This document shows positions 1,026-4,000 of a DNA stretch of 64,000 bases, piece after piece. The position numbers were made by a program. The stretch's first letter is position 1. The number at the start of each line of letters is the position of its first letter. The stretch is from assembly GCF_045037415.1 (NCBI RefSeq), contig NZ_CP173438.1; one strand, written 5' to 3'. This DNA comes from Escherichia coli (GTDB lineage: Bacteria; Pseudomonadota; Gammaproteobacteria; Enterobacterales; Enterobacteriaceae).

Positions 1026-4000
1026 TTATTGTCCTGCGAGTTGCTGAAGGGCTGTGATGACGCGGTCGGCATCGGCGGTGGTCATATCCGGGAACAGCGG
1101 CAATGAACAGATGCGTTCGCTATTCCATTCGGTATTCGGTAACGACAGCGTGGGAAAACGCTCGCGATAATATTTTTGTGTGTGAGCAGCGCGGAAATGT
1201 AACCCGGTACCAATGCCTCTTTCTTTTAACGCTTCCATCAACGCATCGCGACTGATACCACAACGTTGTTCATCGACACGAATAATAAACAGATGCCAGG
1301 CGTGAACGTGCGGCCAGGCGGGAAGGCTTAATGGCTGAAAGGGGAGAGTTGCCAGTGCTTGCTGATATTGCTGGGCAATTTCGCGCCGCCGGGTGTTGAG
1401 GTGCTCTAATTTGACTAACTGTGTCAGGGCAATCGCGGCGTTAATATCGGTCAGATTGTACTTATAGCCCGGCGTTAAGACTTCAGCCTGCGGTGCACGG
1501 CCCCAGGTATGTCTGTCATAGGCATCGACACCCAGACCGTGAAATTTCAGCATCCGCAGCTGGCGGGCAAGATTTTCATTATCAGTAACAATCAGGCCAC
1601 CTTCCGCACAGGTAATATTTTTGATGGCGTGAAACGAAAAAATAGCGGTACCTTTTGCGCCAATATGTCGCCCTTTGTAATACGTACCTACGGCATGGGC
1701 AGCATCTTCGATAACTGCGATGCCGTAACGTTCGCCAATGGCGCGAATGGCGTCAATATCTGCTGGCGCACCGGCATAATGCACCGGAATGATGGCTTTA
1801 GTGCGTGGTGTAATGGCTGCTTCGATCGCTTCAGGCGTGACCATCAGCGTATCGCGGTCGACATCCACCATTACCGGCGTTGCACCCAGCAAGGAAATCA
1901 TATTGAGGGTTGAAACCCAGGTCAGGGAAGGCGTAATCACTTCATCGCCCTTGCCAATTTCCAACGCCATTAGCGTGATATGCATTCCGGCGGTGGCTGA
2001 ACTGACCGCGATGGCATGCTGATTTCCCGTCAACTGGCAAAAAGCTTGTTCAAGCGCCTGATTCTTCGGACCGGTTGTGATCCAACCGGATTCGAGAACC
2101 TCTTTAACTGCAGCGAGTTCCTCTACGCCCATTGCTGGTCGCGAAAAAGGCAAAAATCCTGACATTGTTTTTCCATCCGTCATTGAATACCTGTCCACTT
2201 ATATTTGCTATAAAGAGTGTTGTGTATATTTTGCCATTTGGAGCAAAATTTTAAGGATAGAATATTAACTTAACCTTAAGAAACTAATATTAGACGTAAA
2301 TATTGAAATTTTTATATTTTTTCTTATTTAGACTTTGCATTTGGCAAAATTTTGAGGCATTTTGCCGGCATCATAGGATTTTTAATATTACACCAACTGC
2401 TAATTATCGCCAGAAAAGTCGCTCAATTTCACGGTAATTGTCTGGTTGCGCTTGTCTACAGGTGGAGTTTACGTGTTAGCTTTTTGCCGATCTTCGTTGA
2501 AGTCAAAAAAATATTTCATCATTTTACTGGCGCTCGCTGCAATTGCCGGACTGGGGACTCATGCCGCCTGGAGTAGCAATGGTTTGCCACGCATCGACAA
2601 TAAAACACTGGCCAGACTGGCACAGCAGCACCCGGTTGTCGTTTTGTTTCGCCATGCTGAACGTTGCGATCGTTCAACCAATCAATGCTTGTCAGATAAA
2701 ACAGGTATTACGGTCAAAGGTACCCAGGATGCCCGTGAACTGGGCAACGCTTTTAGTGCTGATATCCCTGATTTTGATCTCTATTCCAGTAATACCGTCC
2801 GGACTATTCAGTCGGCGACCTGGTTTTCGGCGGGTAAAAAGCTGACGGTAGATAAACGATTTCTTCAATGCGGTAATGAGATTTATAGTGCAATTAAAGA
2901 CTTACAACGCAAAGCACCTGATAAAAATATCGTTATTTTTACCCATAATCATTGCCTGACATATATTGCTAAAGATAAGCGTGATGCGACATTTAAACCT
3001 GATTATCTGGATGGTTTAGTCATGCATGTGGAAAAAGGCAAAGTTTATCTGGATGGGGAATTCGTTAACCACTAAATTTTCAATCTGACAGCCAGTGATG
3101 GCTGTCATCATTGTTAAAGAAGACCTTTCAAACGTAACGTTTTTCGGGTGGCAACATTCAAATCATAATGCACCAGATCTTCAGGTTTTACCCACGCGTA
3201 GTCCTGAAACTCTTCGTTTATTTTCACATCTCGGTTGGCAGAAACGCAGTCAAAAATCAGGTAAATCATATAAATCTCTTCCTTGCGACCATCTGCATAC
3301 GTCTTGGTGCGAATATCATCGCTGAAGGTCCACGGCGTGATTTCTGTCAAAAGCAGCTGTTCTCCCAGTTCTTCGCGAATTTCGCGGCGTAGTGCCTCTT
3401 CAATTCGTTCGCCAGGCTCCACGCCGCCACCCGAAAGCGCCCATTGACCGGGGAAAACGCCGCGATCGTCGGCCATTTTACACAGCAAATAAGCACCATC
3501 ATTTTGAATCAAAGGGCATACAATAGTCCGTTGTCGCACAGGGGTATTCCTTATAAATAAAAAGAAACCATGAGAATACGGTAACTCAGAAATATGTGAA
3601 AGTGACAGTAATCTCTTTTGCGATGATAACTACATTTATTATTATTTTTGTGTGTATCGATAAAGTGTGTTTATTTTTTCGGCGTTTAATTATTTAAGAA
3701 GTATTTAGTTACAATAAGTGACTAGATCCCTTTTTTCGCTCATTGAATCCTCTGCGCCAGGCAGTACAATCCCGCAGCTTTGGGAATTTTGATTAATTGC
3801 TTGTGGGAAAGAGGATAATGAAAAAAATTGCGCTAGCAGGTCTGGCCGGAATGCTGTTGGTTTCTGCATCGGTCAATGCAATGAGCATCAGCGGCCAGGC
3901 GGGTAAAGAATACACCAATATTGGTGTCGGTTTTGGGACTGAATCGACGGGCCTGGCGTTAAGCGGTAACTGGACACATAACGACGACGACGGTGATGCC

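What the first reader, a model, noticed from the sequence alone, without database searches (positions are those of the whole stretch)
2199..2472. Divergent arnB / ais control region with a PmrA-box-like direct repeat
CTTAAG-N5-GTTAAT on the arnB side, followed by a -10-like TAAAAT, fits PmrA-dependent activation of the Ara4N lipid A modification operon (polymyxin and cationic-peptide resistance). ais on the other side is also reported to be PmrA-regulated, but I could not identify its box.
Basis: partly seen in the sequence, partly recalled or inferred. Interest (0 to 1): 0.2.

Follow-up and report, generated by a model that had tools for sequence, protein, structure and literature searches.

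The report
Known PmrA/BasR box of arnB–ais
This is the already-described binding site through which the PmrA/BasR regulator switches on the E. coli arn (polymyxin-resistance) operon, and comparison with other genomes suggests the same single site also serves the neighbouring ais gene.

Summary
CTTAAGGTTAAGTTAAT lies at window 2280..2264 on the arnB (−) strand. Exactly 10 nt downstream is TAAAAT (2253..2248).

- **Match to the known box:** it fits the experimentally derived Salmonella PmrA box (half1 CTTAAG, N5, half2 XTTAAT).
- **Not chance:** it is unique in 64 kb (0.01 expected) and unlikely even in this AT-rich spacer (P≈4e-4).
- **Independent scan:** a weight matrix built only from non-Escherichia arnB promoters ranks it first of ~128,000 positions.
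- **Conservation:** 75 of 79 other Enterobacterales arnB loci show box–N10–TAnnnT.
- **Already published:** the E. coli sequence is listed as the yfbE/arnB PmrA motif, and a 60-bp probe identical to window 2242–2301 is shifted by QseB~P. So this is already known.

No second box exceeds chance. Five genomes that have ais but no adjacent arnB keep the same box in the same orientation. An ais-specific σ70-like core, TTGCAT-17-CATTTT (2335–2363), sits exactly 65 or 75 nt from the box in 12 lineages. It is absent from 72 arnB loci that lack ais. The shared-box model for ais is inferred, not demonstrated. Interest is low.

The parts
2264..2280 (-). PmrA/BasR box CTTAAGGTTAAGTTAAT. Half-site 1 is CTTAAG at 2280..2275, the spacer is GTTAA, and half-site 2 is GTTAAT at 2269..2264. 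On the + strand it reads ATTAAC-TTAAC-CTTAAG.
   Evidence: (rank 1 of ~128,000 positions, 21.7 bits). Identical to the published E. coli yfbE motif. Invariant in 6 E. coli strains.
2254..2263 (-). 10-nt spacer (ATTCTATCCT) between the box and the -10 hexamer.
   Evidence: The exact N10 spacing is found in 75 of 79 non-Escherichia arnB loci.
2248..2253 (-). arnB -10 hexamer TAAAAT. There is no -35 hexamer; the box occupies that position.
   Evidence: I required only TA at box+10. The last hexamer position was nevertheless T in 65 of 65 unique sequences. Orthologues read TAGCAT, TAATCT and TAGGGT.
2166..2241 (-). Predicted arnB 5' leader. The transcription start is inferred near 2241 (+/-3) and was not mapped.
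   Evidence: Inferred from the -10 position. A C[CT]AAATG motif is conserved in the early leader of arnB-bearing species.
1026..2165 (-). arnB coding sequence (UDP-4-amino-4-deoxy-L-arabinose aminotransferase), first gene of arnBCADTEF.
   Evidence: RefSeq annotation of the identical region.
2242..2301 (-). Stretch identical to the 60-bp EMSA probe that phosphorylated QseB shifts in PMC10729948.
   Evidence: 0 mismatches. Present in 5,414 of 5,426 complete E. coli genomes.
2335..2340 (+). Candidate ais -35 hexamer TTGCAT.
   Evidence: TTGCnT in 12 of 13 lineages at a fixed 17-nt distance from CATTTT. Inferred, not mapped.
2358..2363 (+). Candidate ais -10 hexamer CATTTT, inside the near-invariant octamer GGCATTTT (2356-2363). 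The predicted ais start is near 2370.
   Evidence: CATTTT is present in 13 of 13 lineages (GGCATTTT in 12; C. tructae has CGCATTTT). The octamer lies 75 nt (6 lineages), 65 nt (6) or 62 nt (1) from the box. It is present in 3 of 3 arnB loci with ais and 0 of 72 without.
2301..2306 (+). Alternative, box-proximal ais -10 candidate (TATTGA), 20 nt after the box as read on the + strand.
   Evidence: TATAAT, GATAAT, TAGTCT or TAAACT sit at this offset in the 65-nt class, but the element is poor in the 75-nt class, including E. coli.
2473..3075 (+). ais (pmrG) coding sequence, LPS core heptose(II)-phosphate phosphatase.
   Evidence: RefSeq annotation.

Best explanation
The 17-bp direct repeat at 2280..2264 (- strand) is the PmrA/BasR box of the arnBCADTEF promoter.

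**How it most likely works at arnB.** Phosphorylated BasR/PmrA is produced when BasS/PmrB senses Fe3+, Al3+ or mild acid, or indirectly through PhoPQ and PmrD. A head-to-tail dimer binds the two TTAA-centred half-sites. The box takes the place of a -35 element, lies exactly 10 nt upstream of the -10 hexamer TAAAAT (2253..2248), and contacts sigma-70 region 4 and the beta/beta' subunits. Transcription then starts near 2241. The result is Ara4N addition to lipid A and resistance to polymyxin and cationic peptides.

- Shown here: the sequence, its spacing, its statistical singularity and its deep conservation.
- Taken from the literature: PmrA dependence in E. coli, and the structural mechanism solved on the Klebsiella orthologue.

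**Inferred extension to ais.** ais has no box of its own. The same box is the PmrA-responsive element for ais. The ais core promoter is most likely TTGCAT-17-CATTTT (2335-2363), which puts the box centre near -98 in E. coli and near -88 in Salmonella-type spacers. I give about 0.9 to the arnB part, about 0.6 to 'the shared box serves ais', and about 0.45 to that particular ais core promoter.
For: - **Match to the experimental definition.** Verified Salmonella boxes have half1 CTTAAG, half2 XTTAAT and a 5-bp spacer (PMC3973317). That pattern occurs once in the window against 0.01 expected.
- **Local-composition control.** P~4e-4 in simulations of the AT-rich spacer.
- **Independent PWM.** A matrix from 65 unique non-Escherichia arnB promoters ranks the site first at 21.7 bits; the next best is 15.8 bits, inside yojI.
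- **Promoter architecture.** 75 of 79 loci show box + N10 + TA. T at the sixth -10 position is 65/65 although I did not require it.
- **Recovery of known sites.** The footprinted K. pneumoniae box CTTAATATTATCCTAAG is recovered at -171 and the Salmonella box CTTAATGTTAATTTAAT at -115.
- **Prior publication.** The same E. coli sequence is listed as the PmrA motif of b2253/yfbE.
- **Binding data.** QseB~P shifts a probe identical to 2242-2301.
- **Mechanism.** The cryo-EM complex shows the pmra-box replacing the -35 element.
- **ais evidence.** No second significant box exists. The box is kept in the same orientation in 5 ais loci that lack arnB. The ais-linked block sits at a fixed 65 or 75 nt from the box. 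The block is present in 3/3 arnB loci with ais and 0/72 without.
Against: - I could not obtain the primary Salmonella footprint paper (Wosten & Groisman 1999) or Marchal 2004.
- Half-site 2 begins with G, a departure from the strict YTTAAK consensus.
- PMC10729948 proposes that PmrA blocks RNA polymerase at arn and that QseB is the activator in a pmrA qseC mutant.
- For ais, a box centred about 90-100 bp upstream and pointing away from the gene is an unusual activating position for this regulator family.
- The 10-bp difference between the two spacing classes may rest on only one or two indel events.
- E. marmotae lacks the TTG of the proposed -35.
- A published K-12 start-site survey lists no ais start.
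Confidence: 0.9

Rival explanations
1. ais uses the shared box but from a box-proximal promoter. Read on the + strand, the box (ATTAAC-TTAAC-CTTAAG) lies 20 nt upstream of a -10 at 2301-2306, giving a start near 2313. The conserved TTGCAT...GGCATTTT block is then a downstream element, either a second promoter or an operator in the leader.
For: TA at box+20 occurs in 11 of 13 lineages. Good hexamers (TATAAT, GATAAT, TATAAT, TAGTCT, TAAACT) occur in 5 of 6 lineages of the 65-nt class. The related regulator PhoP has an analogous architecture, with a box 21-23 nt upstream of the -10 (PMC3335776). In the C. freundii-like locus the box scores nearly as well on the ais strand (19.9 vs 22.9 bits).
Against: In E. 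coli and the rest of the 75-nt class the hexamer lacks the essential final T (TATTGA, TATTAA, TAGACG, TAATAA). The region is so AT-rich that TA is common by chance. RNA polymerase at this promoter would overlap polymerase at arnB. The model does not explain why the block keeps an exact distance from the box.
Confidence: 0.25
2. ais has its own degenerate PmrA box. The candidates are TTTGAG-GCATT-TTGCCG (2351-2367, whose first half is TTTAAG in several other species) and TTTAAT-ATTAC-ACCAAC (2381-2397).
For: TTTAAG is a perfect half-site in E. albertii, E. marmotae, Salmonella and some Citrobacter. The 2380-2397 site is the fourth-best PWM hit in the window.
Against: The TTAA core is invariant in true boxes (65/65). 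At the block it reads TTGA in all E. coli checked, TTTA in C. rodentium and C. amalonaticus, and TTTC in I. alba. No second half-site follows, and no TAnnnT lies 10 nt downstream. The 2380-2397 site has P~0.04 by chance and is not conserved even in E. albertii.
Confidence: 0.1
3. PmrA control of ais is indirect or topological. PmrA-driven divergent transcription from the arnB-type promoter, or displacement of H-NS from the 20-25% GC spacer, opens the ais core promoter without any direct PmrA-polymerase contact at ais.
For: Genomes lacking arn still keep the complete opposite-strand promoter (box + N10 + TAnnnT) next to ais. The spacer is 20-27% GC.
Against: An exact 65/75-nt spacing is not expected for supercoiling coupling or anti-silencing. 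The retained promoter may be a relic of an arn deletion. No experiment bears on it.
Confidence: 0.15
4. The box is mainly a QseB site. PmrA acts there as a blocker rather than an activator of arn, as the model drawn in PMC10729948 proposes.
For: QseB~P shifts the 60-bp probe. arnB and eptA are constitutively up in a pmrA qseC double mutant.
Against: The probe contains the whole PmrA box, so the EMSA does not separate the two proteins' sites. arnB reporter induction requires pmrA in wild-type E. coli. The Klebsiella orthologous box activates transcription with PmrA in vivo and in a solved activation complex. Box-N10--10 is the geometry of an activator site.
Confidence: 0.05
5. The match is a chance product of AT-rich intergenic DNA and has no function.
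For: The loose consensus with one mismatch is found as often as chance predicts.
Against: See, and the published data.
Confidence: 0.01

Closest known systems
Salmonella enterica pbgP (pmrH)/pmrG divergent control region
   Same: The gene pair and arrangement are the same. The orthologous box CTTAATGTTAATTTAAT sits 115 nt before arnB, followed by N10 and TAGGGT. The same ais-side TTGCTT-17-CATTTT block is present. PmrA binds the pbgP promoter in vitro and in vivo according to PMC1804205.
   Different: The E. coli half-sites are CTTAAG/GTTAAT rather than CTTAAT/TTTAAT. The box-to-block distance is 75 nt in E. coli and 65 nt in Salmonella. E. coli has TTTGAG where Salmonella has TTTAAG just before the CATTTT.
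Klebsiella pneumoniae pbgP pmra-box (crystal structure 4S05 and the cryo-EM PmrA activation complex)
   Same: Two hexamers with a 5-bp spacer replace the -35 element, followed by the same N10 then TA (CTTAATATTATCCTAAG caaggtcgac TAcatt). This is the mechanistic template for the E. coli site.
   Different: Klebsiella also has a PhoP box and a second, PhoP-dependent promoter. [quoted passage not shown] Klebsiella has no adjacent ais and no GGCATTTT block.
PhoB pho-box promoters (same OmpR/PhoB family)
   Same: Direct repeats with 11-bp periodicity substitute for the -35 element about 10 nt upstream of the -10. Activation is through sigma-70 region 4 (my own knowledge; comparison drawn in PMC10570014).
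   Different: The half-site sequence, the regulator and the signal all differ.
PhoP promoter architectures III and V (Zwir et al. 2012, PMC3335776)
   Same: These are precedents in a sister regulator for boxes two helical turns from the -10, or further upstream in reverse orientation. That is what either ais model requires.
   Different: They were demonstrated for PhoP, not PmrA. The reverse-orientation PhoP boxes lie 30-58 nt from the -10 at half-integral turns and come with a second box. At ais the distance would be 77 or 67 nt and there is only one box.

Membership tests
PmrA/BasR-activated promoter (pmra-box type) | Direct repeat of two TTAA-centred hexamers separated by 5 bp (YTTAAK-N5-YTTAAK; verified Salmonella form CTTAAG-N5-XTTAAT) | tested here: met
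   CTTAAG-GTTAA-GTTAAT at 2280..2264. One departure from strict YTTAAK (G at the first base of half 2), but an exact match to CTTAAG-N5-XTTAAT.
PmrA/BasR-activated promoter (pmra-box type) | The box occupies the -35 position, about 10 nt upstream of a -10 hexamer, with no separate -35 | tested here: met
   N10 then TAAAAT. The same spacing is found in 75 of 79 orthologous loci, with TAnnnT 65/65.
PmrA/BasR-activated promoter (pmra-box type) | Lies upstream of a gene of the PmrA regulon and is conserved with it | tested here: met
   It precedes arnB in Escherichia, Salmonella, Citrobacter, Klebsiella, Enterobacter, Kosakonia, Raoultella, Erwinia, Pantoea, Dickeya and others.
PmrA/BasR-activated promoter (pmra-box type) | Scores as a site with a model trained on independent sites | tested here: met
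   The PWM, built without Escherichia sequences, gives 21.7 bits, rank 1 of ~128,000 positions, P~4e-4 in local-composition simulations.
PmrA/BasR-activated promoter (pmra-box type) | Bound by phosphorylated PmrA/BasR, with transcription dependent on pmrA/basR | not testable with these tools
   From the literature only: pmrA-dependent P_arnB-gfp in E. coli, QseB~P EMSA on the identical 60-mer, and PmrA footprints on the Klebsiella and Salmonella orthologues.
Separate PmrA box dedicated to ais | A second two-half-site box in the correct position upstream of an ais -10 | tested here: not met
   The best other site scores 12.4 bits (P~0.04) and is not conserved. The conserved block lacks invariant TTAA cores and a second half-site.
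Shared bidirectional PmrA box serving ais | The box is retained with ais when arnB is absent, at a constrained distance from an ais-specific element | tested here: met
   5 of 5 ais loci without arnB keep the box. The distance to GGCATTTT is 65 or 75 nt in 12 lineages and 62 nt in one. The block occurs in 3/3 arnB loci with ais and 0/72 without. A functional link remains untested.
PhoP/PmrA feedforward connector loop promoter (Klebsiella/Yersinia type) | A PhoP box (KGTTTA-N5-KGTTTA) in the arnB promoter region | tested here: not met
   No match with up to 2 mismatches within 2166-2472. This agrees with PMC2565834.

The most novel reading that the evidence does not exclude
One PmrA dimer on one box controls both divergent genes by two different geometries. 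At arnB the box replaces the -35 element. At ais it acts remotely, at a distance locked to 65 or 75 nt from the core promoter TTGCAT-17-CATTTT. In addition, the complete arnB-type half-promoter (box + N10 + TAnnnT) is kept under selection even in genomes that have lost arn. That would mean one of two things. Either it is itself required for ais activation, through divergent-transcription coupling or a polymerase-bound PmrA. Or it drives an unannotated PmrA-dependent short transcript antisense to the end of menE.
Probability: 0.25. Interest if true: 0.4.

Novelty: already known. Interest (0 to 1): 0.15.

Why it matters
The arn operon is the main chromosomal route to polymyxin/colistin resistance in Enterobacterales, so knowing exactly where its switch lies is useful. 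For arnB that is established knowledge, and this window adds nothing new. The small added value is comparative:
- a clean rule (box-N10-TAnnnT) that holds across about 75 species;
- evidence that the unannotated ais/pmrG promoter depends on the same box;
- a candidate ais core promoter that can be tested directly.

Tried and rejected
- **Loose consensus scan.** With one mismatch it was not informative: 3 hits against 2.7 expected.
- **Generic sigma-70 scan.** It found only two weak promoter-like sites (2291-2318 on +, 2432-2403 on −), no more than in shuffled sequence. The TATATT at 2313-2318 is not conserved even within Escherichia.
- **Reading the conserved block as a degenerate PmrA box.** Rejected: the TTAA core is not conserved, there is no second half-site, and no -10 lies at N10.
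- **TAGACT (2329-2334) as the ais -10.** It is conserved in 4 species, but it reads TCGGGC in E. marmotae and is absent in others.
- **Second-best PWM site, 2380-2397.** Consistent with chance (P~0.04) and not conserved.
- **PhoP box.** None in the spacer.
- **Other sigma factors and regulators for the block.** By eye, sigma-54, sigma-32, marbox, CytR, PurR-like and RNA hairpin readings gave no consistent match across species. This was not a formal test.
- **Small ORF or known RNA downstream of the retained promoter in arn-less genomes.** None is conserved and there is no Rfam hit.
- **Published K-12 start-site table (PMC3415461).** It has no ais start. The only 'arnB' entry is a low-count start inside ais.
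- **Primary literature.** The Salmonella footprint paper and Marchal 2004 were not available. A computational 'ais' PmrA hit listed for S. Typhimurium (TGCGGAATTTTCATTTTAAT) has no counterpart in E. coli.
- **Direct repeats D1 and D2.** They are explained by the palindromic TTAA cores and by similarity of the sequences that follow the two -10 candidates. That similarity is seen only in Escherichia.
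Full report
**Where we are.** The window is an E. coli chromosome. Bases 2100-2560 are 100% identical to strain SK1144 and are present in 5,418 of 5,426 complete E. coli genomes. RefSeq annotates arnB on the − strand at 1026-2165 and ais on the + strand at 2473-3075. The divergent spacer is therefore 2166-2472 (307 bp, 32% GC, falling to 20-25% in the middle). K-12 annotates the ATG equivalent to window 2183.

On the − strand the sequence reads TTT-CTTAAG-GTTAA-GTTAAT-ATTCTATCCT-TAAAAT. The box is at 2280..2264 and the -10-like hexamer at 2253..2248. The loose consensus with one mismatch is uninformative (3 hits, 2.7 expected). However, PMC3973317 states that experimentally verified Salmonella boxes have half1 CTTAAG, half2 XTTAAT and a 5-bp spacer. 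That pattern occurs once in 64 kb against 0.01 expected. Because the box is AT-rich and sits in AT-rich DNA, I also simulated 20,000 spacers with the spacer's own first-order composition. The strict pattern arose in 10, and a weight-matrix score as high as observed arose in 0.04%.

**Phylogenetic footprint.** I fetched 80 arnB loci from one genome per species. A box-like repeat precedes arnB in essentially every genus.
- The recovered sites include the published K. pneumoniae box CTTAATATTATCCTAAG at -171 and the Salmonella box CTTAATGTTAATTTAAT at -115.
- I required only a good box and TA ten bases after it; 75 of 79 non-Escherichia loci qualify.
- Among their 65 unique sequences, the sixth base of the presumed -10 is T in all 65, although I did not ask for it.
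- Spacer positions 8-9 of the box are TT in 80% and 95%.

A matrix built from these sequences, with Escherichia excluded, ranks the window's site first of ~128,000 positions at 21.7 bits. The next hit (15.8 bits) lies inside yojI. Within E. coli the box is invariant in six diverse strains, and the surrounding 60 bp are found in 5,414 of 5,426 genomes.

**It is already known.**
- The supplement of PMC1525208 lists TTCTTAAGGTTAAGTTAAT as the PmrA motif instance of b2253/yfbE (arnB) in E. coli K-12, O157 and CFT073.
- PMC10729948 notes the PmrA consensus 'with a slight modification' in the E. coli arn regulatory region. It shifts a 60-bp probe with phosphorylated QseB, and that probe is identical to window 2242-2301.
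- A P_arnB-gfp reporter in E. coli requires pmrA, pmrD and phoP for acid induction.
- The mechanism has been solved on the Klebsiella orthologue. The pmra-box replaces the -35 element, and the two DNA-binding domains contact sigma region 4 and the beta/beta' subunits.
- From my own memory of the abstract of Ogasawara et al. 2012 (not read here), the E. coli BasR box is a direct repeat of TTAAnnTT. The site TTAAGGTT-AAG-TTAATATT fits that exactly.

**The ais side.** The best remaining site (2380-2397, + strand, 12.4 bits) is expected by chance in about 4% of such spacers. It is not conserved even in E. albertii.

ais lies next to arnB only in Escherichia, Salmonella and a few Citrobacter. Aligning those spacers shows two conserved islands: the box, and a block at window 2333-2363. 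I then collected nine more ais loci through exact-protein look-ups. Three results follow.

1. **The box stays with ais when arnB is gone.** In five genomes ais has no arnB neighbour: I. alba (menE-pmrD-ais), C. rodentium, a C. freundii-like genome, an unnamed relative (menE-ais), and C. tructae (a divergent PMT-family gene). In all five the same strong box is still present 120-170 bp upstream of ais, in the same orientation as in E. coli.
2. **The block looks like a sigma-70 core promoter.** It reads TTGCnT, then 17 nt of unconserved sequence, then CATTTT. The -10 is present in 13 of 13 lineages and the TTG in 12 of 13. It lies exactly 75 nt (6 lineages), 65 nt (6 lineages) or 62 nt (1 lineage) from the box.
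3. **The block is tied to ais.** It occurs in 3 of 3 arnB loci with ais and in 0 of 72 without.

The box therefore travels with either gene, while the block travels only with ais.

The simplest reading is a single shared PmrA box. The ais core promoter would be at 2335-2363 with a start near 2370, placing the box centre near -98 (or -88 in the 65-nt class).

This is inference. The distance is unusual for the family. The 10-bp step may reflect very few indel events. An alternative -10 twenty bases from the box (2301-2306) is well formed in the 65-nt class but poor in E. coli. PhoP offers precedents for boxes two turns from the -10 and for upstream reverse-orientation boxes. A K-12 start-site survey under non-inducing conditions lists no ais start.

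**An unexplained detail.** In the arn-less genomes the strand opposite ais still carries the full arnB-type promoter: the box, exactly 10 nt, then TATATT, TAATAT, TAATAT, TAGAAT or TACTCT. In four of the five it points at the 3' end of menE or pmrD. I found no conserved small ORF and no Rfam family there. It may be a relic of an arn deletion, an unannotated short transcript, or a part that ais activation needs.

**Verdict.** The arnB element is an already described PmrA/BasR box working as a -35-replacing activator site, so interest is low. The only new material is comparative: the sharp box-N10-TAnnnT rule, and the evidence that ais shares the box and has a conserved core promoter at a fixed distance from it.

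Noticed in passing
L092, L094, L095, L096 (about 1000-1050 in each) and L093: Genomes with ais but no adjacent arn operon still carry the complete arnB-type promoter (PmrA box + N10 + TAnnnT) on the strand opposite ais. It points at the 3' end of menE or pmrD, 70-110 nt away. There is no conserved small ORF and no Rfam match.
   Followed up: partly
window 2228-2247 (- strand) and 2335-2350 (+ strand): Similar sequences follow the arnB -10 and the TAGACT hexamer (2329-2334) on the ais side: TTTGCTCCAAATGGCAAAAT after arnB's TAAAAT, and TTGCATTTGGCAAAAT after TAGACT. This accounts for repeat D2. It is seen only in Escherichia, so it is probably coincidence or a local duplication.
   Followed up: partly
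window 2874-2924 (- strand), inside ais: A published K-12 start-site table (PMC3415461, supplementary file 2) assigns to arnB a low-count start 691 nt upstream of it. Its upstream sequence matches here with 3 mismatches, so it would be an antisense start inside the ais coding region.
   Followed up: partly
window 27435/27436: The window is collinear with E. coli SK1144 except that it lacks that strain's IS1397 (IS3-family) copy between yfaL and ubiG. Coordinates beyond 27435 are shifted by 1,436 relative to SK1144.
   Followed up: yes
window 10092-11321: An ISNCY-family transposase gene and an adjacent truncated hypothetical CDS are annotated between yfaU and glpC in the matching SK1144 record.
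   Followed up: no
window 54648-54741 (- strand) and 54797-54834 (+ strand): MicF sRNA is found by Rfam (116.8 bits). Just upstream of it, in the micF-ompC spacer, lie the third-best (14.9 bits) and ninth-best (8.1 bits) hits of the PmrA weight matrix. These are probably cross-hits on direct repeats for another OmpR-family regulator, which is my inference.
   Followed up: no
window 50797-50873 and 50911-50987 (+ strand): Two tandem matches to Rfam naRNA4 (a REP-derived family) lie between the convergent rcsC and rcsB genes.
   Followed up: no
L089 695-895 (C. amalonaticus): A 66-codon ORF with no Pfam hit is called inside a longer arnB leader, between the PmrA-dependent promoter and arnB.
   Followed up: no
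window 18425-18442 (+ strand): A weak PmrA-matrix hit (11.1 bits, TATTAAGATTTTCCTCAG, one good half-site only) lies 51 bp upstream of inaA, annotated as an LPS kinase. It is probably chance.
   Followed up: no
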